DNA of 64,000 nucleotides, from positions 4,402,001 to 4,466,000 of the forward strand of contig JANJGN010000047.1 of NCBI GenBank assembly GCA_026770705.1. Direction: 5' to 3'. The translations under genes were made by a program, and so were the position numbers. The first letter of the stretch is position 1. Each line of letters starts with the position of its first letter. Source of the DNA: Isurus oxyrinchus. Taxonomy: Eukaryota. Shown piece by piece: positions 1,671 through 64,000 of this stretch. The notes under the pieces are model-generated. The model worked only from the letters and a program-made list of their open reading frames with translations. It did not search any database and was not told the DNA's origin.

Positions 1671-1755
1671 TTAAAATCTCTCACATCCTGGAGCTCACTG
1701 GGCATGAAGAGCACCACACAATCTCAGCTCAACATTCATGATGGACTTAAAAACA

Positions 1756-1812
1756 CATGCATACCCACGCACACAAACATACACAAGGACACACACACAC
1801 ACACAAACACAT
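1756..1812. repeat. Imperfect (CA)n microsatellite
   Basis: Direct reading. Confidence 0.8.
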
Positions 1813-3774: not shown

Positions 3775-3985
3775 AGGGAACGCTGCACATGTTTGAGCGC
3801 CAGTACTGACTTGTCAGAGAGTCAGTGCTCAGGCTGTGCTACAATGTCGGCTGGCTCATAATGAGGGAGTTCAGCAATGTCAGAGTATCAGTCCTGAGGG
3901 AGGGTTGCATGTTCGGAGGTCAGTGCAGAGGATGCGTTAAAATGCCCGTGTGTCACTTATTAGACAGGGTGCTGCCTTTCTAATG
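3775..3985 (+). repeat. Degenerate 33-bp minisatellite (about 6 units, gtcagagggtcagtactgagggagtgctgcaat-like)
   Basis: gtc(a/g)g anchors at 3813, 3846, 3879 and about 3912. Confidence 0.6.
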
Positions 3986-5476
3986 TCAGCACGGAAGGTT
4001 ATAAGGAAAATGGAGCGAGATTAATTGGCATGTGGAGAGCTGGTGAAGCTCTGTTGTTTCAAGGAGCCTCCGACGGTACATCATCCTTTGTGATTATGGA
4101 ATATTTAGCTCATTGTTAGGCATAATACGTGCAGGAAAGTGTCAGAGCATTGATAAATGCAGAGCTGGCGAACGTGGTGGGAACATTCACAAAATCCATC
4201 CTAACATTGCTTTTATTTTCAAAAATAGCTCCACTTTTCAATTTGCATGAATGGGAAATTGATTTGAAACATAGCAGCATAGCAAGCGATATGGCACTTA
4301 AGGAGAACCTAAGCCCTTAAAACGCTTATCCAGTTTAATCTCACCTTCAAAATCACGGTCTCTGGCAGCGTGAGTTACACAACATCAAGCATTAATCAAA
4401 GTGTTATTTGCTTATTTTTTCGAAATATGAGGTGGGTTTCTGGACCACCAGTTTAAGTAGAGGTTTTGCGATTCCCACCATCGTCTGGATATAAATGTTT
4501 GCTGTGCGATTGGTTTAGGAAATCCAGGCAAAGAACTGGAATGCGAGAAAATGGGTAATCGATCTTTTTCGTCCGGCAGGAGGCAACAGACATAATGGGT
4601 CATTAAATACTGTATACTTTGTCAGTTTGAGGGGTTTTTTTAGACACCATATTTGATTGAAGTGCTTTATTCGCTTGACGTGCTGGATTAGTTGAGTTGC
4701 TTCAATAGTGTGATAGGCTGAATGTGCCTGAGGTTACTCATTCTTTACATGGGACTTGCGCTTTTGAGTTTTTTAATCAGTTTGAAACATTGTGTTATTT
4801 AAGGGGATTGTCATCAGATGAAGAGTTTTTCAGGCTGGAGGTCATTTAATGGAGAGCCTGTATCCATTGGAAGGGCTGTGTCCTTTGTGAATGACGGATA
4901 TTTTGACGTTACATTGGTTTTAATTCATTGAATCTGTTGCCACTGTTGTGGTTGTGTGACAGCTTGCATTTCCTGCTGGCTTTCAATCATTGTCAGGTGC
5001 TTTATTAGCTGCCTTCCGCATTGTGAACTCACAAACATCTCACTATTAAAATATAACGGAATTACCACAGTTAGCCTCAGCACTTAAATCCCACAGTGCT
5101 ATAGAACAGCCCTGAGAGAGCCACTAAATGATTTGGAATTGAATTGCTAAACGGTCACCATCGAGTGAAGGACATCAGTTAAGCAAAGTAAAATCGAGAT
5201 ATGGGACTGATTGCTTTTGCGAAAACAACCACAATGCTTGAAAACCCAGCTTCTGGATAATGTTAGTTAATTCATGTAATCAGAATCTTCCAGTATTTTA
5301 ACATTTCCAGGACTTTCTCAGAAACAAACCTTACAACCCCGAACGATGTTCAAATATCAATCCACATCTGGAGGTTTTACAGAGCATAAATAATGACCTT
5401 GAGGATTTATCAGGTCTTATTTTTATGCAGAGAGATTGTCTACAGAACAAAGAGAGAGATCAGTTCACAGAAAAAA

Positions 5477-35900: not shown

Positions 35901-38900
35901 CCAGAAGGGGCATCTCTCCAACTTATACCGGCTCGCTTATGGGTTTAATACAATTATATCCTTGTGTTTGAAAGGTTTGATATTTAAATCGAGTTTCAAT
36001 GGGAGATTGGGCCAAATTCTTCTGCTCTGACCTGCAGAAAATGGAGACCGGTTAGCTGGGACTCGCGGTTTTAATAGGTTGTAATTCTATGCTTATTATT
36101 GTATTTTACAGAGGCTATGAAACTGAGACTGGCGAATGGGAGCAGTCGGTGCGCAGGAAGAGTGGAGATTCACTACAGGGGGCAGTGGGGGACTGTGTTT
36201 GGTATCAGCTGGGACCTGCAGGACGCCGCTGTTGTGTGTCGGGAGCTGGGCTGCGGAACCGCGGTCTCTGCACCGGGCGGGGCTCACTTTGGGGAAGGCT
36301 CCGGGCCCATTGTGACGGTGGGTGTTCAGTACAGCGGGAACGAGGCCGCCCTGCGAGACTGTAAATCAGCTTCCTGGGATCACTATCCCATTTCACACAA
36401 CAATGATGCCAGCGCGATCTGCTCAGGTACAAATATTTCTTCTGCTTCGCATCGCCCATCATATCCGATTTCTTTCCCCTGGAATAAAGGCGGAAATGTT
36501 ATTTTGGGACAGCCGACAGCTGACGAATGAGACTTAGGGCAGGATATTCTAGTTGGAGTTAATGTTATATTCAATTAGAATCATTGCGTGTCATACATTC
36601 ATGTCAATAATTGTGTTTATTTATAAAATTAAGCTCACACCGGAACGGCACGTTGCACCCCACTTTATATCACTGCTGGCTTCTTGCTGTGAGGTGACCC
36701 GGACAATCCAAGGATAGTGAAGAATGTTTGGAAAATCCCGCAAGCATTATACCCTCTCCCTTGCCACTCGCATGGATGGATCGGCATGCTCTTGCGGTAA
36801 TCAGTGAGAGTGATTGCAGAGTCCGGTTATTCAGTTGCCCAGCTGTTAGATCAGTGTTTTATGTTCTCACTCCCTGTATAAATTCCATGGCGTAACGACC
36901 CTGGGGAGCACACCGGAGCATGCAGGTGTCTTTGATTCAGCTCTATTGCGGAGTTTCCCAGAGAGCAGGGGAATTCCCCAGATGAAGTTGAAACTTCCCA
37001 GGATGTTCACACATAGTTCAAGGCGCCAATACTTTCGCTGGGTCCGCATGCTCATCTCTGCCGTTCCTCAGGTTTCCCAGATTCCGTAGTACGGAATAAT
37101 TGGTCTGATATTTTACAGGTTGTGAATCGGGAACTGGGAAGGAAGGTTTCTGTGTGTGGGGAGAGTCTAAATTATGGGGCAGCAAGGGTATAATCTGCAA
37201 ACATAATCCCGATGTCAACTGCACAGACCATTCGGTTCAATATTTAATTGATATTGAGATCGGAAGAAGTGCAGCATTTCAAACCAATATGTTAAGTGTA
37301 ATGCAAGGCACAATTGCAGTGAATAATCTTGAAAGCGTTACATTACTGGATGAAAAGCGGAGAGTTCCCCATCAGCGCACCCAAGAAATCCTGGCACATG
37401 GACCTAATCTAGGCATCATCGGAACAGATCTATTAGCAACTTAACCCTTTGTGGGATTTCGGTGGAAAGGGCAGCAATTATAAAACTGAATCAGCCTTTT
37501 AAAACTAAACTCAATGGAGATTAAACGAAAACTGCACTTTCTAAGTTACTGATCAATGTTGTAATTTTTTCAACTGCTTCAGTCATCTCCTTTATGTTAC
37601 ATGGTCGGAAGAGGAGGTGTTTGATCATGACTGCCCAGTGCTCGGCTTCATTCGCAATTCATCAAATTAGGAAGCAGCCCATAGCCACACAGAGCAAATC
37701 CTGCACAACATCCATGCCCCAAATGATATAAGCCAAGTAAGACGTGTCTGCAAACGGCTAATGACAGCAATGGAAGAGAGATTCCAATTGACATTCAGTT
37801 GCTTTGCAGTCAAACAGTCCCTCATCATCTTAAACTTGGGGAACACCGTTGACTGAACTTCCATTTGCAATAGCCAATGCCAATGCCGTGGCTTCCTCAG
37901 CAGGCCAGAGGCTGAATGTTCTGTGAGTATCAGTCTTCAACTGTCTCACCATTGTTTCTCATTTCCCGAATCATCGCTAATCGTGGAAACTGCACGTGAC
38001 CTGTAAAGGCGCTGCTGAGGCACTAGACAGGAGACTTGCCATCCCCAGATGAAGTTCTGTCTTTGACTGGGTGTTTAATCACCACCATCAACCACCATTC
38101 TCTCCCTCAGTGCGATAATAAGACGGCAATCTTAATTATGTGCAGGGAGAACAGCAGCACCTCTAAAAATATTGTCTTCTCCATTTCTGAAAGAAACGGC
38201 GTTCATCTCGCTGGTTCAAGCTCCATGAACTCCCAATCTAAGAGCAATGTGGTAGCCCGTTCACCACACACAAGGCAGCTGCTTTTATGAAACACAGAAT
38301 ATCTTCTCAAGCAAACTCGGATGGACAGTTAATACAGGTCGTGTTAGCGAAGTTCACAACTGTAGTTCTGTTGTAAACATTACACAGAATCACACATTCT
38401 CGACGGCAAAGCTACTGACTCCATAGGCCAACCGGTCAATCTCGGGGTTAATGACGTAATCGAGCATCCCCCGCTCCCCAACCACTTTACCCTCCAGGCA
38501 ATACAACAACTTATCATCTATCTTCATCAATATAACGTGAGGTTCCATTCACCATCATCTGTTCATCAATCATAAATAAATCCATTGCAATCACCTCATC
38601 TTCAGTGGCCACGAGTTCCACATTCTAACAACTGTATGGTAAAAAAAAACATTTCTTCCGAATGCATTTGGGAATTTTAGTATTGTTTGACCATAGCCCA
38701 GAGTTAACCATCATCTATCCTGTCAATTTGTTCAATCGTCAAAAAGATCTTTATCATTTCAGTGCTCGGGTTACCTTCCCTCGTGAAAACAAATGTACCC
38801 AGGCAATTCATTTCATTTCCCCCAACCTTCCTCGTAGAACGGTCAAAATCCATATAAATAACTTTCAACTTGTCTCGTGTCTCTAGGAATTTGATGCCCC

Positions 38901-41900
38901 CCTTGCGGTGGTGCCGTGGGTGTCAATGGAGATGAGCTATTCAAATGTCCATTGACTTCCGCGGGACAGGAATATGCCGGCAGTGCGAGAGTGGGCTGAC
39001 CGGAATATAATGAAACTATCAAGCTTTTTAACTCCTTCCCTCCAAAAATGAAGGCCGAGACACTGAGATCCGATGGCACATCTACCTAATGTGCACTTTC
39101 ATTTTCCAATGAATACCTGAGCTCTGAATTAATTCTCACAAAAATAATGCATTGCCCTTAACTATTATAACATTCATTTGCAAATTAAGTGCACATTTTG
39201 GGAATTTATTGCATTTACTGTTTATTCTGTCTCTCTAAGTACCCCCTCACAATTTTCCTGAGTTTAAACTGCGCTTTGAATTTGACTCCACAGACTAATT
39301 TTGAACTATTCCCTGTGGATAATCTGTTTCTGTAAACGGCAAACAATATTGTTCCTGGCATCAGTCCTGTTGGAACACAACGAACTACCTTTGTGCTGGT
39401 CTGAATATCTAACATCCATCCTTAATTACTGATGGCTGTTTGCTATGCAGTTTGGGATTAATTCTGCTAGCTTTCCGCCAGCTCCACATCGTCTCTCACA
39501 CGGAATTAGCTGTGTTTTTTTCTGCTGCACGATAGTACAGAAAATCTACTGTGAAATGTAAAGGAAACGATGTAACTATTTTTTTCAGAAAAAAAACAGA
39601 AGATGTTAAAACGACTGATTTGGGTAAGAGGTACCTGTGGACAGACAATGTTCACGTTTCACACTAGTAAGATTTTGGCACTACAACTGTGGAAGCGATA
39701 TTCAGAGACAACATTCGTTAATGGACAAACGATCCATGAACAACGTTGGTAACCATTATAGAAGGCTGCGATCTGATACTCTGTCATCCAAATATTTTAA
39801 TGCATCTGACAGTGTAATTGGTGTCCTGGATCCAATGACCCATAATTATTGAGGGTCATTTTTGTTTTAATCCATTCACCCCTATATTATGCGATGCAAT
39901 TCAGGCTACAGATGGAAGGTTACCGGACATTAATTGCCAAGGCCCGTGAAGACTATTCGGTTGCAATGAGTTTGCTTTCTCATGGCCTCTCACTGACCTC
40001 ATTACACTAGAAGTGAGGTCTGAGTGAGGAAGAGAGAGAATATTGTTGGAGTATCTCTGTCTCCCCGTTCAATTGCACATTGATTATGGCCTTAAGAGGC
40101 TCCCTTTGTATGTGATTGATTATATATATAAGTATGAAATGCTTCAGTGATCTATTAAATTCAAAGCTTCGGGAATCAAAAGGCGATGTACGGGAACATG
40201 AACCAATTGACATAAGCTGTCCTTTCAAGTTTGCACTTGGAAGACGGGAAACATTCTGGGGAGCCCGAAATGCACTCCTTAAATGATCAGCGTATTAAAA
40301 CTAAGGCTTGGTTCACAAAACTGTACATGGTTATCCGGTGATTGTTTCGTTTGGATTCAGCTGTCAGTACTTTAAAAATGCTAAAATAACACGAGCCTGT
40401 TTTTTGCCCCTTGTATGTGACCGTTACATTTTACTGACATATTCAAAATGGCACTTAACATTGCTTTGTGCTTCCAGTGTTCGGAATGTTTCACTGGGAA
40501 AGTATTGTGGGATCAATCATTTTATGTTTGAGGTTATTTGGTGTCTGTGTTCGTCAATATGCTCCATCGACGAAAGAACAAACGCCAGCAGATCAAATGG
40601 TAGATTCGAGGACAAGTCAGGGTTCCTGGATTTATCTGAGTAATTTTCTGGCCGGTCACAGGATATGTCTAGTTGCAGTCGCCCGGTTCCAGGGAAGAGT
40701 TACTCCCTGAAAGTGTTATGAAGAGAAAGCTGCTGTGACTTCCATATAAGTAGATGTTGTGAACAATGGGTGTTATAATTTCAAGTGGGGGGATTGAAAA
40801 ATGAGGGGCCAGAGGTAGTAAAAGTAGATGAATTGGGACTTTGAGAATAAATATGTATTTAAAACTATTAAATTCACCTCGATAGAAAATACGGAATGTA
40901 AGAGAAAGGGAGTTTTTCTGTTGATCAGATGTTTTCCTGCAATGATGGCTGGGTTGGCGGGGGTTGGCGGGGGTTGGGGGGGTTGTCTGTGGGTGGGGGG
41001 AATGTTGCCTGGATGCAACTTGATGTAGTTTCTATTTGGGCATTAGTGCCAATGAAATACCAGCTGTGAAAAGTCGAATTCTTGGTGATCTTCATCAATG
41101 AGATCTATCGACCGAACATCGAAGGTGTGCACGTGTGTTGGGGTGAAGGATGGTATGGTTGCATTTCAGTCTATGGATTCCGGGCGGGAACCAGTATAAA
41201 AATAATATGTAATGAAGAAATTTCGCTGCAGGTAGTGCAGAGATTGTTTGACATCAAAGAGCACTTCTCTCTCAATAGATGTTTTGCCAAGTTCTCTCTG
41301 CAGATATAGTGCATGCTTGTAACACTGTACTGAGGTAGCAGTAAATCTAAGTGTGTTAAAGGATGCATGTGGCCTCTTTACAAGCAATAACTTCTGGAGG
41401 ATTGTGGGGTTTAGCTTAATCGCTATTGTGCCGGGATGAAACCCTTATCAGAAGTCATCATCACAGGTTTTGCTTAAACAGATATGCACAAAATTGAAAA
41501 TGATTGGGACAATCATGAATTGTTGTTACTCAGATCACAGGATTCCCAGACTCGTATCCATGGATTCCAACTGCTCGGGCAGACTGGAAATACAGTTCGG
41601 TACAACCTGGGGAACAGTGTGTGATCTTCACTGGGATTGGAATGACGCCAGTGTGGTCTGTCATCAGCTTCAGTGTGGAGTCCCCGTGTCTGTGGAAAAA
41701 GGGGCTTATTTTGGAAAGGGCACTGGAATTCTACGGAGCGATAAATTTGATTGTAAAGGCAATGAGACAAGCCTGACAGACTGCCCTATCTCTCCAGTAA
41801 ATCAAAACGAGTGCACCCACATGAACGATGTCGGTGTGAGCTGTTCCGGTGAGTAGAAGGATTCCGAAACACATAAAGGTTTTCTGGTGAACTTTTCAGA

Positions 41901-44900
41901 AACGGAGAATACGCCATTGCTGTTTCCTTGTATTATGATCATTCCCAAGCACTTCCTTATAGTTCACTGTCGCTTTTTATGATTCTGGAATAACGCAATT
42001 ATGTTTAAGTCAGTAACTTCTGCGTAATCTGAAAATAATGCATTATTATTGCGAAATTAATGCTTGCACCATACATAGGTTTTTCATTCACATTTGCCAG
42101 AACACCCATTATCGATTGAACTCTCAAGTCGTTTTCTGTCTGCCAAACATGAAATGACTTCATTAATTATAAAAGTAGGCGAATCAATATTTAACTGTGG
42201 TTTCATTATTTTAGAGAGGCGTTTCAATGAATTGACCGAAATAAAGTAAATAATTAGGAGAAAATTTCCTTTCTTGTTTCTTGCTCAAAATAGTGGGATT
42301 ATCTCCGTAGCAGCATTGCAACTGTATGTGCTATGTGCCTACGTCAACAGTCCAAGAGAATGAATTCCAATCGCTTCCACAGGGGAATGTAGAAAATAGG
42401 AATAAATGCAGGCCATCTCAAATATATTCCTGTCCCGGCAATAACAACTTCATCCCTTGAGTGACCTTGTTCTGGATTACTGGACCCGTGACTCTTTGCC
42501 AAATCTTTGAAATCCATTTAAGATTTTGAACATCGTTTAATCAGCCCTAATCCTTCCAGAGTAAATAGCTTCAAGACATTTTTGTTCGATTCGGAATCAC
42601 AATACAATGTTTAAGTAAATTAAGCATCCTTCTATATATACGTTGCATCCCCTCCAAGACGAATAGTTTCTTCTGGAGTGCCCTGTCCAAATCTGACAGC
42701 TGTTATACAGGTTGGTTCTGGCCAATACTGGGTATGACTGAAACGTCACGTCCTCTCTTTGGTATTTCAAAGCTGTTGAGACAAAGTCCAAAATTCCATT
42801 AGCTTTTTCCTGGATGAACTCTCTACTTTGAGCAAACAGACGCGTTCGTTTAAGGGCTTATCGCAGTCTGGTGAGTTTCAAACAGTAAGATGTGTAAACA
42901 GTGCAGTACAACACGAATTTATAAATTTTCATCTCTTCATTTTTCTTTGTTTCGCCATGTCTATATTCATATGTTCATTTACAAAATATTTTCGTCCTTA
43001 TTTTTATTAAAAACAGGGAAGCATGGACCCCGATTGGTTGGTGGTGAGAACAGGTGCTCCGGCCGGGTGGAAGTGCTGCACGGAGAGCAGTGGGGGACCC
43101 TGTGTGATATTCACTTTGGTTTAGAAGACGCCAGTGTGGTGTGTGAGCACCTTCAGTGCGGGGCTGTAAAGGAAATCCCGAGGGTTTCTCCCTTTGGGCA
43201 GGGAGCAGGCCGTGTGTGGAAGGAAAATTACAGGTGCCACGGGAATGAATCGCGAGTGACAGAGTGTCGGGTTACATCCGGGGAAAATTTTAACTGCTCA
43301 CATGGAAATGACGCCAGTGTCATCTGTTCAGGTGAGACCTCTCAGTCAATGTAATCATGGATTAAAATAATCTCCCTGCAACACTGAAAGGGGCCTTTCA
43401 GCATGTTCTGTCCATGGAGGCTCTCTGCGAAAGTATCTCACCCACTCACACAACCCTGCAATTTACAATAACTGTGCATTGTTTTTCACTCATTTATCTA
43501 ACCATATATATTTTAAAATCTGCGATTCATATTCATCCACCACATCTTCAGGCAGTGCATTTCAGATCCTCGCCGCCACATTCTTAGACGATGCTTTTCA
43601 TATCTTCAAGCACCATATTCTCCAACAATGAATTGCAGATCCTCATCACCATCATTTTCAGAGAGTGCATTTCATATCCTCATCCTTCGCTTTCTCAGGC
43701 AGTGCATTGCAGACCCTCATCATCCATATTCTCCAACAGTACAATGCAGATCATCAAATACCACAATCTTAGACAGTGGATTGTAGATCGTCATCCAGCA
43801 CATTCTCAGACAATGCATTCCAGATCCTCGTCACTCACATTTTCAGAAAATGCAGTGAAGATCCACATACGCCACATTTCCAGACAATGCATTGCAGGTC
43901 GACATCCACCACAATCTCAGACAGCATATTTCAGATCTTTATCCACCAACTTGTCGGAAGGTGCATTCCATGTCCTCATTCACCAAATTATCTGAAAGAG
44001 CATTGCAGATCGTCATCCAGCACATTCTCATACATGTGCATTCCAGACCCTCATCACCCACATTCTCAGACAGTGCATTGCAAATCTTTATTCCCCCACA
44101 TTCTCAGGCAGTGGATTGCAGATCCAAATCCACCACATTCTCAAGCAGTGCATTGCAGATCCACATCCCCCACAATCTCAGACCGTGTGTTTCAGATCCT
44201 CCCCCCCCCCCCCCACGATCTCAGAATGTGCATGTCAGATAGCTTGAAGCAGATCCTCACCTACCCCCATTCTCAGCCAGTGCATTGTAGACAGTCATCC
44301 ATCACATTCTCAGACAGTGTATTGCGGATTGCCATCCAGCATATTCTGGTACATTGCATCCCAGGTCCTCATCACCCACATTCTCTGTCAATGCATTACA
44401 GATCCTCATCCATCACAATCTAAGACATTGCATTGCAGATCTTAAGCTAGCATTTTCTCAGACAGTGCTTTGCATTTCATCATTCACTACAATTTCAGTC
44501 AGTGCATTGCATATCCTCGTCCACCACATTCTCAGGCAGTGCATTGCAGAACGTAATTAATCGCAACATGCAAAACTAGCATCCTTATGTCACCATTTCC
44601 AATTTGTCCATCACCATGAATCTGTACTGATCATTCTTGATCCTTCCGCCAATGGCAACAATTTTTCTGTGCCGTAATGTCCAGAACCCGAAGGTTGTTT
44701 TAGCATTCCCTCTCCAAGTAGAATATTCGTAGCTCACTCAAACAATGTAGAAAAAATACGTTTGTCATCACCGGAATGATCTTATGAAGCATTCCTGCAT
44801 CATTTCTAATGCCTTCATACCCTCCCTAACGTTTGTAGCCCAGAAATGGAAGCATTATTCCAGATGAGGCCGAAATGAATCATAACATCTTCCATTCAGT

Positions 44901-47900
44901 GTACTCTGTGCCTTAGTTATACACCAAAGAACTCCAAACTTTAGCAGCCTTTTCGCAACCTGCACTGTCAAGTACAATGTTTCTTACAAATGCACCCGAG
45001 GATCGTCAGCTTCTGAAACTCAGTCAGAAATGATCCAGTTCTTTATTGTTCCTTCTCCTAGTCCTTCGTTTGGCAGCCTTACCTCTCTTAAAAACACTCA
45101 CTTCTAAAGCACAAGGCCTGTTTCAAGAATGACTCAAGTTATTTGCCAGAGCAGTCAAGTCTGTGAATGAAGTGCAGTGCTGTGGGAATGCTGTTCTCTA
45201 TAATTTTGCTTGTTCCTGGTAAGAGGTTTAATCGATGCTATATCTGCATCAGTGGAGGTTAATAAAAATATTTACCATGAGTCTACTTTGAGGGAAACTA
45301 GGGAGTCTATCCAAAGTTATCCCTTGATCAACATCAGACAATGTAGCTCATCTGGTCATTATCACACGATTTTTGTGCCATTTTACTGCGCCCATTATGG
45401 CTGCGGCGTTCCTTAAATTGCAACAGTGCTGACATTACACAATGCAAATAAATGACTGTAACTTGCGTTGAGGGATCCGGTAGTTTTGAAAAAAATACTT
45501 ATCTACTTTAAATACGTATTTTTTTTACTTCCAACAAAAATGGGCCAACCAATGCTTCCCTCAACCGAATTTCGTCTATAACTTTCCGGCCCGTTCTAAC
45601 AGCTTGTCGGTGTCTGATTTAATTTTAATCTTTCAACATTTTACAACACTTAAAACAATTCTGTATACTTTGAAGAAAAAAAATGAAATTGTTCCCCTTA
45701 CAACCAAGTCTCGGTAGATATCATGTATTAACGGAAAATCAGGGTTTCTAGCCAGGTGGAATGTCCTGTTCCTCTGGTCTGGAAAAGAAGAAACGTTGAA
45801 CACGACGTCCTGTTCCCTTTCAAAGAGCAATTCCATCTCCAGTCAGTCATTTTTCCTTTTATTCCACAGGCGCCAAACATTTCTGCCAAGCAGCTATCGT
45901 GACCCTTTGCCAAAGGTCATTTCAAAGTCCATCAAAGCCACATCCACTCCATTAGCCTCATTAACAGTCTCACTAACCTCATTAAATTACTCTAGCAAGT
46001 CCGTGCAATGCGATTGTCTCTTACCAAATCCGCCCTAGATTGTTAATGAAACTACATTTTTCAACTGGCTCTAACTTCTGCCCCAATGTATATTTTCCAA
46101 GGAAACAAAGCTTTCCCAAAGCCAATATTAAACTTACTGGTCCGAATTTACTGCATTTATCCTAACACCATTTCTTGAACAAGGGTGTAATATTTGGAAA
46201 CTTCATTTATCGGCATTGAAGAAGGATGGGAACATTATGACCATTATCTGGCGATTTCGGCTCTGACATTGGTCATGCTCCCCGAATACACGTCATCCAA
46301 TCCATGTGTCCCGTCTAATTCAACATCAGTTGCCCAAGCCAATTCGTCCTCTTTATAAATATCTAAACACTCCATTTTATTTCATCTGCCTATTCTTTGT
46401 CCAGCATTGAGGAGCATTTTCTTCCTTGGCTAAAAAACATACTCAAAATGCTGACTCAGCAGCTGAGCCATAACATCAGCCTTTATATGCCGATTTCCTT
46501 CCTGGTGTCGGTTTTGTGCCTATATAAGACTGTAAGATCCCGTTTTATGTTAGTGGGAGTCTCTTATATGGTCTGGATATTGTACATTCATCTTGGATCT
46601 CTCTTGCATTATCCAAATTCAATATCCTATCCATATATATTTATTTCTGCTTCACCTTAATCCCCATCTATTTAATCACCCAGGGAGCCTTTGAGCTTTT
46701 GCATAGTCCTGCACTTGTCTAAGCCAATTTTCCATTATTGCTCCTCAGTCATTTTCAGAGCCTGCACGTCACGAACATCATTTATTGCAATGTACGTTCA
46801 CACACCTGAAAAGTAAATATAATTGAGGCCATTATACAACCTCGGTTGTGCTTATCATGAATAACACCACATTATTTCCTCCGTTATTGCAATCTTTCTT
46901 TTCTACTTTTCTGTGCAGTTTGGTTTTTCTCTCTAACCATATCTGCCCGTTCCCAAATCCCTGACAAATTCATTCTGTACTTTCCAATCAATAAACCAGA
47001 CGGACATTGCCCCCGGAGTTTTTTCATGTGAAACACATGAAAACATCCATTGGTCCTTTCTTCACAGAACTGAGTCTATGAGTCCATGAGAACAGGTCAC
47101 AAAGTCACATGAGCTTCATTAGGACTCTCGTGCACCGTTTATCTTGCGACATGTTCATCAGTTCTATCGCTCGTACGTTGTGCTGGGATATTTCAATATT
47201 ATCAGGATATTACTCCGTTGATGGCAATTTACTAGATTGTTTGCAACATCCTTAAAAATCATCTGCAGGACTACACCCTTCTTCCTACCTCTGAAATTGT
47301 TCCACTAACGGAGCATGAATGCTGACTGCTCACCCTCCCGCATCAGCGTGCTCAGCAGGGTCCCACTGATCTGCCTCACCTTGGCACTAGGGTCAGAACA
47401 TTTACGTGAATAATCATTGCCCCGGTTATATTGAGTCAAATGTGCATGATTTGTTTGAATGTTACCCCTTGCTCTCATCTTGTAGATGAAAGTTGGTCAC
47501 TGAGATTGACGAATGGGGGAAGCCGCTGTGATGGTCGGGTGGAAATTTACCACAACGGTCACTGGGGCAGAGTACAGGACAGCCTCTGGGACCTCAATGA
47601 TGCTACCGTGGTCTGCAAGCAACTAGGACGTGGTGTTGCACTTGCCGCTTATACCTCTGCAATGTATGGAGAGAGTGAAGGGCCTGTGTGGGTGAATGAT
47701 GTCCAGTGTGGAGGAAACGAACTGCATCTCCGCAACTGCAGCTTATTTGCAATGAATTCGTCTCTCAATGAAAGTGTCGGCGTCGGGGTTCTGTGTTCAG
47801 GTGAATAAATAGTTCAATTTTACCGGAACATAAATAGAAATATCTAATAAGGAGGGAGGTGTGAATATACGTCACTTGTTCCTCGAGTTCTTTTAACCTA

Positions 47901-50900
47901 ACTGCTTAGCATTGGAGGGCTAACGTGGGGAGAGTGGGCACGCACAGAACTGATCAACAAGCAGGACATGCATTTTTGCTGCACATTTATTAACGACGGA
48001 ATTCAGAATTTTCTCTCAAACAGGAAATTCTGACAGCACTTCTGTTAGTGCGGGGCGGGGGGAGTCGTGAGGGGCGGGGCGGTGTGGTGTTGGGAGGGGC
48101 CTTACAGCTTGGTGCGAAATTGTGTGTTAATTTAACAACGTTTTCATAGAATTGCCGTTCATATACTCGTCAGAGCGACAGGCCGCTCATGGGATTTCTG
48201 CATTATTCAATGCATGAAAAAACGATGCACTTACAGGTCTTTCAGCAGCAGAAGGCTGAGCTTCTATGAAATGTCATTCTTAAAAGTCACTTGGTTTCTT
48301 TTTTCCACTGAAGCTGCCAGATCCCCTGAGGAATTGCAGCATTTTTTTTCAATATAATCAAAATAAAAAAGCGAGATAATCAGAAATCGACTGAAATAAG
48401 TTTTCGAGATATGTGCAGGGGAGAGAAAAAGCTGTGTACAATTGATGTTCATAAGTAGTTTAGGTGGAACGATGAATACAAAAAAGTTCAGTTGAGGTTG
48501 AAACAGGGCACACAGCACTGAGCACACAATACGTGAACTGCAAGCCAAAATATCGATGGAATCAGGTGTAGGAATATTTGAAATCTTTGTGCACTCCACA
48601 TTATAAATTTCAAGTAGTTAGAGATACATGGTCTCAACTATAGAAACAGTTACCTGTCATAGTCAATTGATTTGTTTTATTACTTTTGCTGGATAATATC
48701 CAATAGTTTCAATTTGTGTTATGATATAAATGCGTAATCGAATCCTCTTAATAAAGATTGTCTTCTTTGGATCAGAACACAAACAGTTAAGGCTGTCAGA
48801 CGGTGGAAGCCCATGTGCAGGCCGAGTGGAGATTTACTATAACGGGACCTGGGGCTCAGTTTGTGATGATTCCTGGGATCTGACAGACGCTGACATCGTT
48901 TGCAAACAGCTGCATTGCGGAAAGGCTTTGGACGTGACACTTCCTGCCTCTTGCGGAGCAGGCTCAGGTCCAATTTGGTTGGAAGGCTTGGAGTGTTCAG
49001 GGGAGGAATCGTATCTCTGGCAATGTCCCTCTGAATATTGGGGTGCCCACGACTGTTCTCATAAAGAAGATGTGAAGATCATGTGCTCAGGTAAGGGTGA
49101 CGTAAATGCACTTATTTCCTTTATACGAGAAGATTCAGACAGATAGAATTTTACTGAATGGCCCAGAAACTGTACATCAACTGGTCATTCTGCTCAATGC
49201 GTCTGACTGCTGCTTATTCTGCTCATAATCTTACATCATTTCATGTGGTCTGAGCTGTATTGCACTCTGTATTTTCCCCTCGTGCCTTTATCAAACGTCA
49301 CATTCAAGGCATCACCACAATTCGCCCCCACTAAATGTACATGTTCCATGTTCCACATTCTCCTTCTATCAGGGTAATAGAAAGCGAAACAGAAAATCTC
49401 CTAAATCCCAATTTGTTTGGCTCTTGTGTTTCTTTGTCCGAAAAAATCACGACTTTATTCTAATCAGCATTGAAATAATTTCAGCATTGACAAGCCTATC
49501 CTGCTGTCTCCGACCGTCTTCCTGCAGTTAATGGAACCTGTCTTGGTATTAACTGCAAACCGTAGTGCATTTTGAACATTTACTTCAATTCCAAATACCA
49601 AATGTAATATGTTAATCTGAAACAGATGTGAGCCCCAGCAATAATCCATGTGTACAGCACGCCCCAACTTCTGCTATTATATATGAAATCCTGCGTTGTC
49701 GCTTGTTGGCTCTTCTTTTAATACTGTGCCGGCAATTTCATTTCCCTGTTCTCAGCCTTAATGCAGCTGTTTGAAAACTTTTTGAAAGTTATTGTTTTCA
49801 AAATCCATGTGGATTACATGGACATTATTATCTCCACATAATCTTTCTGAAACTTCCTCAAGTAATTCAATGAATTGGAAGATCTATAGTTCGCTCTTTT
49901 GAAATCTGTGTTGATTATCATTGATTATATAATTGGATTGTACATGTATCACTGTTACATTTCTGGAATAATTATCTCTATTCAGTGAACACCTCTGGCA
50001 CAACTTGGGTGGAGGGGGCACTGTTGACATGATTCCATTTATCACTGGAAACATCTGGAGATTTCTTCTTTCTTTGATAGAACACAAAGAGCTGCAGCTG
50101 GTGAATGGAAAGCATCGCTGTGAGGGGCGGGCGGAAGTGTTCTACAATGGGATCTGGGGAACAGTGTGTTCGGAAGCACTGGATCCCCATGATGCTGAGG
50201 TGATCTGTAAACAGTTACAGTGTGGCCCCCTGGTTTCTATAGACTATACCACTCAGTCATTCGGAGAAGGATCCGGACCTATTTGGCTCGATGAAATAGA
50301 ATGTATTTCACACGAGTCGACTATCTGGCAGTGTCAGACAGACCCGTGGGGACAACACAACTGTAATCACAAAGAAGATGCAGGCGTTTCATGTTCAGGT
50401 AACAAAACAAACCTTCCAATGTGCGACGGTTATTTCATTCATTGATCTCCTCAATAGGAAGAAAGATAACGAAGGGCCAGCCCAAAAGTGAAAAGGATTG
50501 TGGTCGAGAATCAGGTGATTGCTCCACTTTAATAGATCAATTATCTGAGTTGTCTACCTGTATTTTTGTGCAGAAATAATAGTGATTGATTATCTTTGAC
50601 AGATTCAGATGTAGGTTTGCGCCTGATTGGAGGTAACACCAACTGCTCCGGGCGAGTGGAGATAATGTGCAAAAACAACTGGAGCACAGTGTGTGATGAC
50701 TCTTGGGATATGGCCGATGCCAATGTTGTCTGCAGACAGCTGCATTGTGGCTCTGCTCTATTGGCCACAGCAGGGGCCACTTTTCGACAGGGTGAAGGTG
50801 ACATGTGGTTTGATGAGGTGAGGTGTACCGGAAGCGAATCCTTTCTCTCTGATTGTCCTTCCTTAACGTCTGCTCAACCTGACTGTGATCACAAGGAGGA

Positions 50901-53900
50901 CGCCAGTGTGATTTGTTCCGGTAAGGGTAGTGCAGAATGGTGCGGGTCGGGGCCGGGAGATTGGCAGTTGGTGATTGTTTGCTGAATACGTCTCATGAAT
51001 TCGTAAATGATGAAAAAGAGATGACTTTCTAAGTTAAAGTTCTATATTTTTTGTATAATAACCCATAGGTCCAGAGTTGTCATCGGCTGCTTTTCCATCC
51101 AAACCCGCAGGTTGGTCTTATGAATAATGAGTATTCCTGTCAAGGCTAATGTTCAGAATGATCTGATATAATTGGCTTTTGCTTGTTTTTATAAAGAAAT
51201 TCCGAGGTTAATCTTAGTGTTTCAGAATGTTGGACCGTTTAACAATACAAAGCATTTTGTGTCCTAGTTGAATCTTTCTTTAACATTTCATTAAGGACAT
51301 GAAGACAATATCACTTCCATCCCTCTTGTGATTGGTATAACAATCGGTATCCTGTTGATCTGTGAGTTCATCCTACTAATTGTGGTAATGCGGAGGCAAT
51401 CATCAAGGAAAGGTGAGGACAAACATTACCACTCACTTCACATTAAATCTCGGATATTTTTATTTTTTATTTCAATTCATGAATGATATTTGAGACTCTC
51501 TGGCAGTCCTGCATTCATTGGCCATCCAAAATTGCCCTTGAGAAAGAGGTGATGAGATGACTTCTTGAACCGTTGCAGTCCATGTTGCATAGGTACACCA
51601 CCGTACTTTTATGGAGGGAGTTTAAGGATTTGACCCAGCGACTGTGTCAGAACGGCGACAAATATCTAAATAAAAATAGCGACCGGCTTGGAGGGTGACT
51701 TCCAGTAAGTGGTTTTCCCATATCTCTGCTTCGCTTGTCATTCTCCTTGGTTGTTTATGTGGTTTTGGAATGTCCTACCTAAGCAGCCTTACTGGATTCT
51801 TCAAGTGCATCTTATAAACAGTACACACTGCTGCCACTGTAAGCGGATGATGAATGGAGTGATTGGTTGTGGATATGGTGCCAAAAAAGCAGAAAGCTTT
51901 ATTCTGGATGGCGGCAAACCTCTAGAATTTTGTTGTAGCTGCACTCAAACAGGCAAGTGGATAATCTTCAGGAACACTCTTGATTGTCCCTTGCAGACGA
52001 TGGAAAGGATTTGCCTAGTCTGGTGTTAAGTTCCTCAGAAGGGTTTCTTGTCTCTAACCTGCTTTTGTCACCACATCATTCTAATCACAAGCCCAGTTCA
52101 GTTTCTGGTCAATGGAAATGCCTGGGATGTTGTTAGTGGGGGAATCAGTGATGGCAATGCTACTGAATGTCAAAGGCTGCCAGTTGGATTGCACCGTGTT
52201 GTAGATCGTCATTTCCTGGCACTAGTGAGGCACGAATTTTACTCTCCACTATGAATGTCAGGCCTGGATATGGTCCATGTCTGACAGCATGTGGGCATGG
52301 CCTGCTGCAGTAGCTGAGGATTCGGGACTGGTAATAAACATTGTGCCATCATCAGTGGAAATCCTCACGCATGACCTTCAGATGATGACATGGTCATTGA
52401 TGAAACAGGTGAAGATCGTTGGTCCTAGCACGCTATGCTGAGGAGCTCCTGCATTAATGTCCAACTACTGAAAGATGATTGACCTCCAACAACCACAATT
52501 CCCTTGTTCTATGCTCACTCTGACTTCAAGCAGTGAAGAATTTCCCCCTGAATCCTATTGGCTCCAGTGTTTTTTTTTCAGGTGCCTTCATGCCTCGTAC
52601 ACTGGCGAGAATTCACTTCATTGTCCTTTTCCATTGAATCTCACTTGTAATGTTGGAAACTTATGTTAAGCAATTTAACGAGAATTTTCGTTCAAAGTAC
52701 TTGGTCAAACAGTGAAATGTGTCATTTAAATTGAAGAATCACTTGACTGTCCACATTCGCATTCCTAATGATTCCACCGCTACTGCGTCTGAAGGTCAAT
52801 CAATTGTTGCAGCCATAGATCTGAAGGTTATTTGAAGCATTTTAGACTTAGTGCCCAGTCATGATGTTTCCGTCATTCGAAGTCAATCCAATCAGTGTCC
52901 GTCCACTCCTTGAGTTTCCGTGCCCTGATGCCCATTCTCATTCTCCATAGCCAGAATCGATCCACAATTTTGAGATGTGAGACTTCGATGGGATTTTCAG
53001 CACCAATTTTTGAATATTGTGTACAATGACATAAGTAACTACTCTGATCTGAACAACCATCACACTCCTGTTCGATGCGCAAAGCAAATTAATTTTAATG
53101 TTGATGCGATACATAAAAGAAAGGTCATCTCCTCACTCGTCTTTCCAACCTGATGCTCTCAGCAGAATCAATCATTTTTCCCCTGCTTCTCTTCAGCTAA
53201 AATCCCCTTGGGTCTCACGACAGAGTTTTCAGCTGAAATTGATTCCTCCCGGAAACGCCTTGTTTCGTCTTTTCCGACCTTAATTAAATTTCCCCTAGTC
53301 TGATGGAGTTGAACATGCTTCCATGCGGTTACCCACACATGCACACGCCCACACAGACACAGTCCCATGTACATAACGTCTCTCTCTCTGTCTCTCATTT
53401 TATCTCTCTCACACACACATTTGGATACGCACTCTCTTGTAAAATAAAACGTACTTAACAAAAGATCATTCAAAGCCAGCTCACTGACTTTTTGCATTCA
53501 CATTCACCATCTGTTTTGTGATATTATTTGAAAACATTTTAATATTCAGCAAAGTAAAATGCAACAAAATGTTAATCCCTCCACATTGTCTCCATCAGGT
53601 TTTGCCACTGGCAGTTGGGCTTCACCAATTGATTTGTACCAAGCAATTTATGAAGAAATTGAAAATATACCACCTGTCAAAGATCCAGCTCTGACCCGTG
53701 GCTCAGGTTTGTAACTTCCATTGCAAATCCAATACGCACTGGGGAACTCCCTTTCCGTTCACCCCCGTTAAAAGTCCGGGCAATGCATGGGCCCAACAGG
53801 CATTCCACTCACTTTCCTCATGTGAAAGTTTCCTATCTCCGCTTACTTTTGTTACGTGAGAAGAGTAATGAGCTTCTCAAATTTCCCAAAATTCTGTTTT

Positions 53901-59889: not shown

Positions 59890-60529
59890 TATATCCATCT
59901 GGAAGATGCTTAACTTTCCGACATAAACATGTTTTGAGAAAAAAAAAACAAACGTTACCTTGTGTGGAGACATCTAGATTCGTTTCTTATATCTATAAAT
60001 TATCTTAAAAAGTATAAATACTGTCTAATCAGAATTGTAGGACAAATGATTTTTTTCCCGCATTTTCATGTATATAATTAAACTGTAGCACACTCCGCTG
60101 TATCGACAATGCAACCCATCAAGAGAATTGAAGAGCTGATGACTATCATTAAAAGTTATTTTCAGCTCCATTTTGTAATAGTTTCTTTTAATTTTATAAC
60201 ATAATTGCTCAGTTGTCCATCAGTGGAGCTCAGATCTAACTGACTCAGGAGAAATAATTCACCGTGCACTATCCCCCAGCAGCTCTTATTTTAGTTCCAT
60301 GAGGTTGGCGATTGTATCAGGCATGACCACATGCAGAGGGCCACCATTATAACAAATACAGCACAAAATAGAGACAAAATGTTCAAATAATGACATAACA
60401 TAGACTGTTAGAGAAACAGTGCTCATGTTTTCTGTCTGTGAAAGGGTCATGGGCCGGATTGATTAAATAAACCCTCAGCTCTAGCACTCTGTGTTCTGTC
60501 CCTGTGAACTTGCTGTGCTATGTACGCTC

Positions 60530-61255
60530 AGGGCAAAAATTCTTCCATCTCTGAAAGGCTGGTGGAAACATAATCGCACTTGATTTTTGTTGCCAATCTT
60601 CCAGCTGGTGGAACCGAATCACCAGCTGTTTGGAATTTCGTCCTGTCTTCACCTGTAGCGAGACACCAACAGTTGACATCAAGCGATCCTTCCCCAGACA
60701 CTAACGGGACACCATGGAAGCTGGAGTTATGCACACAGGAAACTAATTCCCCCTCACGCCACAGTCTACTCGAGCATATTCTACATCCTTCTGAATTCCC
60801 ATAACACTCAAGACACTCAAGAACATCCAGTACAAAGTCGCCTGCTTGACTGCTGCACCACCCGCCATCTACGGCCTTAAATAAATCATTCCCTCTCCCT
60901 TTGACAATGGTAGCAGTGTGTACCATTTCAAAGATACACTGCAAATACTGCATAAGATTATTTTGGCAAAACTTCCACACACACGAGATCTCCAACATAG
61001 AAGGACAAGGGCAGCAGGCGCATGGAAGCGATGCTACCTGCAATTTCCCATCCAAGTCTCACACACCGTATGGACTTGGAAGTATATTTTCGTTCTTTTA
61101 CTGCCGATGCACAAAATTCCTGGAAATCCCACTGAACCGCACAGAGAATGTATCTACACCACAGGAATTTGGCTCCCATCATAAATATCAGGGCAATTGG
61201 CAATGGGCAGGGTATAGTGGCCTAGCAAGTGATGCAACATCACGCAAATGCCTTT
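60530..61255 (+). mobile_element. L2/CR1-group LINE 3' end
   Basis: gcagtgtgtaccat...agaaggacaagggcagcag...tcccatccaagtc.cacac...gacttggaa...gggcaatt. Confidence 0.7.
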
Positions 61256-61574
61256 ATAAAAATGGTATAGCTGTCTGACACATCATTCCCACTTCTTGCT
61301 ATCACTAATATTTTGAAAGACATTTACAATTCTCTTCAGACTATACCATTTCTAGTATCCTGGCCTTCACTAATTCTGCTTCACAATGGACATCCAGTTC
61401 CCCTACAACAACTAGGACATAGCACTACATCTGTATCACCGTTCCTTCCATGTTGTTGGTTTAGGGTCCTGGAATTCCCTTCCTTACAACTCTATAATTA
61501 AAGGGCAGTTAGGAATCAGCAACAAAATCTGAATTTACCACAACTCCCGCATACCACAAAAGAATAAAAACGTG

Positions 61575-62325
61575 ATGCATCCTTCCCTCAGCAAAACAGC
61601 CAATCCCCATAGAACTCTATCTTCACCAGGTTTCCCAATCCCTCTAAGCCTCATGCATCACGACAACATTCAGTCTCCCTGCAAATCCATTCATCAGCAG
61701 GGCATCCAGTTCGTCTACACACACATACCTCAGCAATACAATTGGTCTCTCTGAATGTATATTGTTCAACAAGACATCCAGTTTCACTATGCCAACATCC
61801 CTCACAACGACATTCAGTCTTTCTTTAACTCCATCAGTCGCCACGTCTTGTAGTCCCTCTGCATAACATTCCCTCAATGGATATCTTGTTCCTCTTCACC
61901 TAAATGCCGCATCCACATCTACATTCCTCTCTAGGGCACACAATCTTTCCACCTTTCCATGCCTCACGAGGAAATTCAATCCCTCTCTACCTTCGTCTAC
62001 CAACAGGGTATTGATAACCTCTACCCCTTCATCTTCACCAGGAAAAGCAATCTCTCTTCACCTCCATCCCGCAATATGACCGGCAGTCACTCCTCACCTC
62101 CATCCATCACAGGGCATGCAGTTATCCTGCGCATCGGACACTCAGAAGCATACATTTTCCCTCTACACATTCATCCCTCAGCCTGGCACATAGTAAGACT
62201 GCATTCCCATTACTCAGCCAGACATCCAGCTTGTCCAGGCCACCTCACTCACCCCTGGCATCCGGTACCTCTACACATCTCCCTCCGCGGGCATCCAGTC
62301 CTTCTACACTTTCATCCCTCACCAG
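61575..62325. repeat. Degenerate 36-bp minisatellite, about 20 units (gggcatccagtccctctacacctccatccctcacca-like)
   Basis: cat(c/t)cagt anchors at 61667, 61703, 61775 and 61811. Confidence 0.75.
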
Positions 62326-63852
62326 TGAGGTTAAGTGACTATGATATGGTTGAGTTTTTCATGAGGACAGAAAGTGACGTATTTTGTTCTGAAACAAGGG
62401 TCCTGAAAAATAATGGAGAAGACTGCGATGGTTTGGGGTGCGGCCTGCCTATGCTGGATTTGGAAACGTTGTTTGGAGGGATGACGATGGATGGGCAGTG
62501 ACGGATATTTGGGGGGCGCTTTGTGGCTTCAACACTTGTTTGTTCATGTCTGGCGCAAGGGGGAGATAGCAATGGTGTCTGATCCATGGCCTACAGGGGA
62601 AATTGGGGATAGTGTTGGATCCAAGGAAGCGGAAGACAAGTTGGAGGGGAAAAAGGGAAAGACATGAGGATTGGGAGCACTTTAGAGTTCATCAGGGGAA
62701 GACCAGGGGATTGATTAAGTGGCGAGGGTGGAGTGTGCGAGTAGACTTGCGGGAAAATATCAACTGACTGTTAACGCTTCTATAGAATGTGAGGAGGGAA
62801 GGGTTGGTGGATACATGAGCGGGTCTCTTAGAGTCAGAAACAGGTGATTTATGATTGAGAACGAAGAGGTGGTTGACCAACCAGATGGATACTTTTGTTC
62901 TGACTTCACAAAGGAGGACGTGGATGATGTGCCAGAAATGTTGGAGAGCAGGGTCTAGAGTGTAAGGGAGGAGCTGTAAGGGACCAGTATGGGCACAAAA
63001 ATGGTGTTGGAGGGATTGATGGGATTGAGGGCGAGTGGAATACTGGGGCCTGATTGTCTACGTCCCAGTGTACTTGGGGAGGTCGCCCTTTAAGTGGTGG
63101 ATGCACTGGTGGTCATATCCCGAGATTCTGTAGAGTCGGGTAACGTTCCTGCGGGTTGGAGTTTAACTAATGGAACAGCAAAATTTGGAAGGGGAGTTAG
63201 AGAGAAGGCAGGGAGTTGTTGACCAGTCGGGCTGACAACGGTGGTGTGGAGAATTCAGGAGTTGAATTTGGAATATTTGGTCGGTGAGCCCTTGGGAAGC
63301 AGTGGCAGAATCGGACAGAGTCAGAGACGGACAGAAGACTGGTTGGCAGGCAAGAATTAGGGAGCAGTCATGATCAGGTCTTTTACCGAATGGCATGCAG
63401 TGAATAGAGCAGTGCTGAGGGGGTCGTTGCTGACATCCAAATTATTCAGGGTGTGTGTCGATGGTTTGGATGAGGGAGCTGGGTGTGGTGTCTCCGAATT
63501 TGCAGATGGCATGGTTCTGGTTGGGAGGGTGAGCTGTGTGGAGGATGCGGAGATGCTTCGGTGTGATTTGGACAGGGTGAGTGGGTGGGCTGCTGCATGC
63601 CAGAAGCAGTGTGCTGGGGACGGATGTGAGTTTGTCCACTCTGGTCGCAGGGATGGGAGGGAAGATCGTTATCTGAATGGCTTTGAATTGAGTGAGGGAA
63701 GTGGGCAAAGAGGTATGGGGGTCCTTGTGCACCTGCCACTGAGGGTAAGCATGCTAGTGCAGTGGTCAATGGGGGAGGTGGATGGTGTGTCGGCCTTCGT
63801 AGCTGGAAGATTCGAGTAAAGGAGGGGGGATGTATTGCTGCAAATATACAGA
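62326..63852 (+). mobile_element. CR1-type LINE ORF2 fragment (linker plus RT), strongly A-to-G hypermutated
   Basis: ORF 63370-63819 GSLLTSKLFRVCVDGLDEGAGCGVSEFADG...DLDRVSGWA...CEFVHSGR corresponds to CR1 GSVLGP.LF.IYINDLDEG...ISKFADD...DLDRLSEWA...CEVIHFG. Confidence 0.88.
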
Positions 63853-64000
63853 TTATCAAATTTCATATCCGAGTGTCACAAACACTGCTCATCATAACAA
63901 GGAGACACAGGAAAGGCACATTCTGGGGCGTTAATTTATACTAGTGAAGTAGAAGGGATTAACACACTTGCCCAGGCTCTGCAGGTCCATTTCCCAAACT

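What the first reader, a model, noticed from the sequence alone, without database searches (positions are those of the whole stretch)
62326..63852. CR1 LINE copy fossilised with an ADAR-like A-to-G hyper-editing signature
Seen: the RT segment reads VCVDGLDEGAGCGVSEFADG where CR1 normally has IYINDLDEG...ISKFADD. Nearly every change (I>V, Y>C, N>D, D>G, K>E, E>G, T>A) is a sense-strand A>G, e.g. gtgtgtgtcgatggtttgg at 63451 for atatatatcaatgatttgg, and gggtgtggtgt for aaatgtaatat. The same G-loading runs through the whole 1.5 kb (ttgtttggaggg, tttggggggcgc, gggggaggtggatggtgtg). Adenosines preceded by G (gat, gag) tend to survive, matching the known ADAR dislike of a 5' G. Other CR1 copies in the window (about 13-14 kb, 55.6 kb) are A-rich and lack this. 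Inference: a dsRNA LINE transcript was A-to-I hyper-edited, reverse transcribed in trans and fixed in the germline. That would be a genomic record of ADAR acting on a non-LTR element. I know G>A APOBEC editing of LTR elements as established, but I do not know this described for shark LINEs. The consensus used is from memory.
Basis: partly seen in the sequence, partly recalled or inferred. Interest (0 to 1): 0.85.

Follow-up and report, generated by a model that had tools for sequence, protein, structure and literature searches.

The report
ADAR-edited RNA hairpin fossilised in genome
A dead jumping-gene (CR1 LINE) fragment has about a third of its adenines changed to guanine on one strand only, and it sits in a clean 2.9-kb inherited insertion shared with two other species; it is likely the DNA copy of a double-stranded RNA scarred by the RNA-editing enzyme ADAR, which would be a rare case of RNA editing becoming permanent, heritable mutation.

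Summary
Confirmed and extended. Against ordinary copies of its family, this CR1 fragment has 169/525 sense-strand A>G (32%) versus 21/353 T>C and 34/446 G>A; age-matched copies show 5.7% A>G. The 5' neighbour order is T 55%, A 44%, C 27%, G 16% (p=7e-10), as for ADAR, with no codon-position bias. It is not a subfamily: its 20 near-identical copies share flanks (one insertion, duplicated with an SRCR gene cluster), and two other organisms' runs carry it. Empty sites in three paralogous loci show one clean 2.88-kb insertion: edited CR1 arm, unedited spacer, unedited inverted CR1 3' piece, then the unedited 3' tail of a second CR1 family. In 17 of 21 spacer paralogs the inverted CR1 continues through the exact antisense of the edited arm. 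Best reading: a hairpin transcript was edited in its stem but not its loop, then retro-inserted from the second family's tail. The source locus was not found, and no second edited copy turned up, so this is one rare event. I found no paper describing a germline-fixed ADAR-edited LINE. The scan noted similar L1/LINE cases in other genomes (unchecked).

The parts
62326..63852 (+). Hyper-edited arm: ORF2 fragment of CR1 family A (positions 1486-3201 of ordinary copy L030), truncated at both ends, 32% of A changed to G
   Evidence: tblastn 36% identity, E 4e-40, to the RT ORF of L030
63324..63324 (+). Junction of a 189-bp internal deletion (L030 2486/2675), also bridged by a contig of organism B
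   Evidence: table 8 (X8 record 29, 63141-63574)
63853..64000 (+). Start of the unedited spacer S, which runs on beyond the window (G000:C47:4465853-4466820): repeat-derived DNA plus a TG-rich run; A>G 4/99; joined to the arm at a short microhomology
64000..64000 (.). Marker for two parts that lie beyond the window's end. Piece c (C47:4466821-4467040, minus strand): last 222 bp of an older inverted family-A CR1 (L030 3554-3775), unedited (plus-strand A>G 1/54 to 2/53). Y1 (C47:4467044-4467208, plus strand): last ~165 bp and tail of a second CR1 family (B, about 58% alike to A), A>G 0/41; it ends the insertion and is the inferred priming end
   Evidence: c; Y1
60195..62325 (.). Left flank of the target site; in three paralogous loci it runs straight into the right flank (empty site, no duplication, no deletion)
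   Evidence: L112, L113, L116
32442..51480 (+). Host unit: gene with 8 SRCR-type exons and a likely transmembrane exon near 51300-51420; the insertion lies about 11 kb downstream of that exon
   Evidence: PF00530 E 2.8e-33; collinear SRCR exons beside the empty sites

Best explanation
The G-rich CR1 fragment is the first part of a single 2.88-kb insertion and is likely the reverse-transcribed copy of one arm of a long RNA hairpin that ADAR had likely hyper-edited (A to I, read as G). Steps: (1, inferred) A fresh family-A CR1 copy came to lie inverted about 1.2 kb from an older family-A copy, about 96% alike to it, with the spacer between them. (2, inferred) A transcript through both folded into a stem of about 1.5 kb, with the spacer and the older copy's 3' end as the loop. 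(3, signature shown, enzyme inferred) A third of stem adenosines were deaminated in the order U>A>C>G at the 5' neighbour; loop adenosines were not. (4, anatomy shown, mechanism inferred) A CR1 reverse transcriptase primed at a family-B 3' tail, either lying in the loop or joined by a template switch, copied the loop and then the edited arm, and stopped at 62326. (5, shown) The product lies cleanly inserted downstream of an SRCR gene, is shared by three organisms, and was multiplied to at least 19-20 copies with the gene cluster.
For: One-strand A>G excess: 32% vs 6% T>C and vs 5.7% in six age-matched copies pooled. 5' neighbour order T>A>C>G; A vs C p=0.019, C vs G p=0.038; G depletion upstream is the conserved ADAR mark (PMC5625713 section 6). 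Equal over codon positions (35/29/29%, p=0.39). Editing stops at the arm: spacer 4/99 (p=6e-10 vs arm), Y1 0/41, piece c 1/54-2/53 (p<1e-6 against 31%). Empty sites in 3 loci, block ends exactly at a CR1 tail. In 17 of 21 spacer paralogs a long inverted family-A CR1 follows the spacer and covers the antisense of the arm. Piece c derives from that local copy (5 of 8 diagnostic sites) while the arm does not (43 of 48 keep the family state), so two separate copies existed. Family A covers only about 0.5% of the 600-kb sample, so this neighbour is unlikely by chance. Family and old-local majorities differ at 54/1560 sites. Adenosine-deaminase (PF02137) loci are in the genome. Contigs of organisms B and C carry the G-rich form and bridge the left junction.
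Against: No source locus: none of the 21 spacer paralogs scored (of 1344 candidates, 40 scored) has the arm upstream or Y1 inside the CR1. No target-site duplication. No 3'-neighbour G preference (A 42%, G 33%, p=0.15), though PMC5625713 reports a downstream-A group in some animals. At 8 sites where the partner would give an A:C mismatch only 2 are edited, so no enrichment there. The arm/spacer microhomology fits a template switch as well as a DNA deletion. One event only: three edited-pattern scans of family A, one of family B (0 hits vs 4022 unedited) and the 629-window sample found no second case.
Confidence: 0.6

Rival explanations
1. ADAR editing of a duplex formed in trans between a sense CR1 RNA and an antisense-bearing transcript of the spacer unit; the block was then built by two template switches (family-B tail to spacer transcript to edited CR1 RNA). 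No inverted pair ever existed in DNA.
For: Explains the missing source locus. Microhomology at both inner joins (about 7-9 nt at arm/spacer, 2 nt at c/Y1). Tripartite LINE chimeras are described (PMC2104539 abstract).
Against: A full-length partner would also pair with piece c, which is unedited. The arm/spacer join keeps the CR1 letter (A), not the spacer letter (G), at the one mismatch in all 6 paralogs displayed, a weak sign against switching after copying the spacer. Needs two rare jumps.
Confidence: 0.2
2. The arm was ADAR-edited before an earlier, ordinary insertion of its own, landed next to the spacer by chance, lost its 3' end, and was later carried passively in the family-B-primed insertion.
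For: Also gives an edited arm with unedited neighbours; the arm is independent of the local copy.
Against: Needs a chance landing about 1 kb from an inverted same-family copy covering the same interval, when the family covers about 0.5% of sampled DNA. No already-edited source was found among 21 paralogs.
Confidence: 0.08
3. A DNA-level process made the changes: GC-biased conversion, transcription-coupled asymmetry, polymerase-eta-type A:T mutation, single-strand deamination, or TpA-targeted hypermutation.
For: These cluster scaffolds mutate differently from large contigs (12-17% transversion-rich divergence vs 5-7%). WA sites are the most changed. A>T is slightly raised (28/496 vs 3.3%).
Against: No T>C excess; TA steps became TG 38 times and CA twice, so not two-stranded; AA is changed at 43%, so not TpA-only. 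C>T equals controls (10% vs 8.8%). Over 90% of the excess at A is A>G, and the small A>T rise is expected from later G>T at edited sites. Adjacent DNA in the same block and orientation is untouched. Since duplication the paralogs show no A>G excess (4.0% vs G>A 8.7%).
Confidence: 0.06
4. The block is a twin-primed copy of an antisense transcript, and ADAR edited the cDNA strand of the RNA:DNA hybrid.
For: The arm and the spacer-plus-c part have the head-to-head geometry of twin priming. A paper on ADAR editing of DNA in hybrids is cited in the reference list of PMC12925331 (title only).
Against: The arm is not derived from the local copy (43/48 sites), which this model requires. The other cDNA half is unedited. 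It does not explain the family-B tail.
Confidence: 0.03
5. An ordinary G-rich CR1 subfamily, or an assembly artefact.
For: 20 matches at 95-100% identity.
Against: All share flanks, so one insertion. 122 of 157 A>G are non-synonymous, as expected at random (369/500). Present in a second sample and two other organisms.
Confidence: 0.01

Closest known systems
ADAR-type A-to-G hyper-editing recorded in avian retroviruses (avian leukosis virus, Hajjar & Linial 1995; RAV-1 U3, Felder 1994). Seen only through review passages in PMC12925331 and PMC8586724; the originals were not read (Hajjar & Linial not held; Felder not looked up).
   Same: Clustered A>G in U3 and in an inverted-repeat region, up to about half of adenosines, in a reverse-transcribing element.
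   Different: Those are exogenous LTR retroviruses. This is a non-LTR CR1 fragment fixed in a germline, older than a species split, and copied by another family's tail.
APOBEC 'DNA editing' fossils in ERVs and lizard L1 (PMC4866542 passages and section 6; PMC3880073 passages)
   Same: Strand-biased, motif-dependent hypermutation of one retroelement copy, fixed in a vertebrate genome.
   Different: G>A by cytidine deamination of cDNA there; A>G here. PMC4866542 screened LTR elements (DNA transposons as control) and found other mismatch clusters negligible; PMC3880073 looked for G>A and C>T and found no signal in lizard CR1.
Hyper-edited RNA from neighbouring inverted repeats (PMC5625713 passages and section 6)
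   Same: 5' G depletion, long near-perfect duplexes from inverted repeats within about 2 kb; chicken CR1 is a main target and elephant shark brain has 200,171 sites.
   Different: That work compares RNA with DNA; here the edits are in the genome itself.
Chimeric LINE retro-insertions by template switch or RNA joining (U6/L1 and others, PMC13174262 passages; tripartite chimeras, PMC2104539 abstract)
   Same: A LINE 3' end with tail at the 3' side and unrelated RNA-derived sequence on the 5' side, inserted as one block.
   Different: Driven here by a CR1, without target-site duplication, and the passenger is hyper-edited; 'editing' and 'ADAR' do not occur in the main text of PMC13174262.
ADAR1 restriction of human L1 (PMC5224506 passages)
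   Same: ADAR meeting LINE RNA.
   Different: Reported as editing-independent, with no edits found in over 2.5 kb of L1 RNA; this locus records heavy editing of LINE-derived RNA that still integrated.

Membership tests
ADAR hyper-edited dsRNA | Dense A>G on one strand only | tested here: met
   169/525 vs T>C 21/353
ADAR hyper-edited dsRNA | G depleted at the 5' neighbour (U, A, C preferred) | tested here: met
   T55, A44, C27, G16%; p=6.6e-10
ADAR hyper-edited dsRNA | 3' neighbour preference (G in mammals and reptiles, A in a second group) | tested here: inconclusive
   A 42%, G 33%, T 33%, C 27%; p=0.15
ADAR hyper-edited dsRNA | Long near-perfect duplex partner, with editing limited to the paired part | tested here: inconclusive
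   Partner present in 17/21 spacer paralogs and predicted loop unedited, but no locus holding both arms was found
ADAR hyper-edited dsRNA | Inosine in RNA, dependence on an ADAR enzyme | not testable with these tools
   Ancient event; only the presence of PF02137 loci was shown
CR1-type non-LTR retrotransposon | ORF2 with APE endonuclease followed by reverse transcriptase | tested here: met
   Ordinary copy L030: PF03372 E 1e-10, PF00078 E 3.5e-32. The edited ORF itself has no Pfam hit but aligns to L030
CR1-type non-LTR retrotransposon | Short tandem-repeat 3' tail rather than poly(A) | tested here: met
   Seen in families A and B; absent from the edited arm, which is 3'-truncated
CR1-type non-LTR retrotransposon | Placement in the CR1 clade (not L2) by RT phylogeny | not tested
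Chimeric LINE retro-insertion | One insertion relative to an empty site, LINE 3' end and tail at its 3' side | tested here: met
Chimeric LINE retro-insertion | Target-site duplication | tested here: not met
   Flanks join with no duplication or loss; that CR1 insertions often lack one is recalled, not tested
APOBEC DNA-edited retroelement | Sense-strand G>A clusters | tested here: not met
   G>A 7.6%, close to controls at 8.8%
TpA-specific two-strand hypermutation | TA to both TG and CA | tested here: not met
   TG 38, CA 2

The most novel reading that the evidence does not exclude
This is a complete fossil of an ADAR-edited RNA hairpin (edited stem, clean loop) written into a vertebrate germline by a LINE of another family. 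It implies a general route by which A-to-I editing becomes heritable, kilobase-scale mutation: editing loosens an inverted-repeat stem that would otherwise stall reverse transcription, and LINE tails in the loop or a template switch capture it. Such fossils would give a dated record of ADAR specificity in extinct ancestors and would be overlooked by G>A-oriented screens.
Probability: 0.45. Interest if true: 0.8.

Novelty: new variant of a known kind. Interest (0 to 1): 0.63.

Why it matters
A-to-I editing is treated as a change to RNA only, and ADAR1's restriction of L1 is reported as editing-independent. A germline-fixed, cross-species LINE fragment with about 140 excess edits, an empty site and an internal unedited control shows that heavily edited RNA can be retro-inserted. 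It gives a way of finding more (A=G collapsed alignment, strand and 5'-neighbour tests) and of reading ancestral ADAR preference from DNA. Limits: one event in this genome, no sign of function, and the enzyme is inferred.

Tried and rejected
Independent edited copies: edited-motif scans gave only the paralogs plus L031, L042 and L043; none of these three is hyper-edited against its closest relatives. A family-B edited motif gave 0 hits against 4022 unedited hits; if about 30% of edited copies would match (my estimate), fewer than about 0.25% of young family-B copies are hyper-edited. These scans miss old copies, and no antisense-edited control motif was run. Sample scan: 152,342 of 600,000 bases had a yardstick and 629 windows were tested; none was an outlier. 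Source locus: not among 21 spacer paralogs. A spacer tree of 25 rows leaves this lineage deep and weakly placed (89/94, midpoint root), so no donor lineage is named. Looking for unedited stretches matching deletions in partner lineages: longest unedited run 14 A, null median 13. A 14-bp repeat first taken for a target-site duplication is part of the C-rich flank repeat. Fold-back duplication of the local CR1 was rejected. Expression: no RNA holder listed. Age in years: not estimated. The block has about 15% non-A>G change versus about 5-7% difference between organisms A and B, roughly five times that split, but these scaffolds may mutate faster than large contigs. The DNA-transposon (Harbinger-like) label for the spacer's upstream neighbour is recalled from a translation and untested. 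Literature: ten searches listed no paper on a germline-fixed ADAR-edited LINE; subscription papers, including Carmi 2011 and the two 1990s retrovirus papers, were not read, and no supplements were opened (those of PMC4866542 might list A>G clusters).

Full report
Observation. The window is G000:C47:4402001-4466000 in a 4.98-Gb assembly. Bases 62326-63852 are a plus-strand ORF2 fragment of a CR1-type LINE: they align at 72-73% to ordinary copies on large contigs, whose open frames hit the endonuclease and RT families. Counting against column majorities of the 10 ordinary copies fetched (L021-L030, the best-scoring of 25 such rows), the window copy has A>G at 169/525 adenines, T>C 21/353, G>A 34/446, C>T 28/220. 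The ordinary copies show 1-3% A>G. A>G makes up 169 of 402 differences; the rest is 15% background decay. Because the best-scoring controls are young, I also used six old copies from similar scaffolds: pooled A>G 5.7%, G>A 8.8%, with the same transversion-rich background. So about 140 changes are in excess, nearly all A>G.

Signature. The 5' neighbour matters (T 49/89, A 71/161, C 24/90, G 23/140; p=6.6e-10), the 3' neighbour does not (p=0.15). Changes are even over codon positions (p=0.39) and non-synonymous at the random rate. TA steps became TG 38 times and CA twice. Density is even along the arm. Upstream G depletion is the shared ADAR mark across animals (PMC5625713 section 6; PMC8586724 passage). 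The finer order U about A > C > G is recalled. All 7 windows of the arm exceed the maximum of 629 sampled repeat windows.

Not a subfamily, not an artefact. Twenty matches at 95-100% lie on five small contigs and share flanks: one insertion, duplicated with an SRCR gene unit. Since duplication there is no A>G excess among them. The stretch is held by runs of a second sample of the same organism and of organisms B and C. I laid 4 of the 24 listed runs: the longer contigs of B are about 90-95% alike over the arm and bridge the left junction and the internal deletion; a contig of C bridges the left junction; B shows only 13-15 G>A places in 2 kb against 169 edited sites. The edits therefore predate the split of these organisms.

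Anatomy. Three paralogous loci (L112, L113, L116; 70-76% alike, SRCR exons seen beside the first two) have the left and right flanks joined directly. The window lineage has 2,883 bases inserted there (C47:4464326-4467208), with no duplication or loss. In order: the edited arm (L030 1486-3201, 189 bp deleted inside); spacer S; piece c, the last 222 bp of an inverted family-A CR1; and Y1, the last ~165 bp and tail of CR1 family B. Only the arm is edited: S 4/99, c 1/54-2/53, Y1 0/41. S belongs to another duplicated unit. In 17 of the 21 non-edited S matches scored, S is followed by a long inverted family-A CR1 that covers the antisense of the arm; the other four lack it; none has the arm upstream. 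Diagnostic sites show c comes from that local copy (5 of 8) and the arm does not (43 of 48 keep the family state).

Mechanism. The simplest reading is an inverted pair of family-A copies around S, transcribed into a hairpin with a stem of about 1.5 kb and about 96% identity (54/1560 differences) and a loop of S plus the partner's 3' end. ADAR edited the stem. A CR1 RT primed at the family-B tail and copied loop, then arm. Family A covers about 0.5% of the sample, so the partner is unlikely to be a chance neighbour. Shown: spectrum, context, confinement, single insertion, origin of each piece, presence in three organisms. Inferred: the hairpin, the enzyme, the priming. I put about 0.9 on ADAR-edited RNA in some form and 0.6 on the cis-hairpin version. 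Against it: no source locus, no target-site duplication, no enrichment at predicted A:C mismatches (2 of 8), and junction microhomologies that also fit a double template switch.

Rarity. Four edited-motif scans and the sample scan found no second case; family B gave 0 edited against 4022 unedited matches. Old copies would be missed.

Comparison. It works like the ADAR-type hyper-editing reported in avian retroviruses (review passages; originals not read) and like APOBEC fossils in ERVs and lizard L1 (PMC4866542; PMC3880073; PMC2873906 passages), but with the other deaminase class, a non-LTR element and germline fixation. Its build is that of chimeric LINE insertions (PMC13174262 passages; PMC2104539 abstract). 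PMC5224506 (passages) found L1 RNA unedited and restriction editing-independent. Ten library searches listed no report of a fixed ADAR-edited LINE; most subscription papers are outside the library. Earlier notes of this scan describe similar L1, LINE-hairpin and proviral cases in other genomes; they are unchecked, and none was listed for this genome.

Verdict. Real, germline, one rare event with an unusually complete anatomy; a new variant of a known kind. Interest 0.63.

Noticed in passing
window 32442-51480 (+), tandem duplication 29566-36832: SRCR gene with 8 SRCR-type exons and a likely transmembrane exon; the first SRCR exon lies in a 3.6-kb tandem duplication at 96.7% identity. The flanking unit occurs at least 19-20 times on contigs C47, C62, C87, C114, C303, with older paralogs on C18 and C20.
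   Followed up: partly
window 18005-19735 (-); L075 about 1600-6300: Young repeat with a 576-aa open RT-like frame and a C-terminal nuclease-like motif (Penelope-like by recall); downstream two copies of it form a 1.7-kb inverted pair at 98% identity, a present-day candidate ADAR substrate.
   Followed up: no
L076-L085, L216-L228 versus L156-L215: Family-A CR1 copies on cluster scaffolds are 12-17% diverged with many transversions, versus 5-7% and transition-rich on large contigs, against the same family majority; suggests faster, differently biased mutation in these clusters, or older copies.
   Followed up: partly
window 43533-44556: Degenerate tandem array of about 37-bp period between SRCR exons, also present in the C20 paralog.
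   Followed up: no
L031 (G000:C21:97.95 Mb): Old CR1 of another subfamily with patchy sense-strand A>G (11/57 and 11/68 in two of six windows) but G>A at least as high overall; possibly lightly edited, not distinguishable from background.
   Followed up: partly
L063-L073, L216-L228: A multi-kilobase unit (repeat remnant, TG-rich run, long CR1) is itself duplicated on many small contigs; its host gene cluster was not identified.
   Followed up: no
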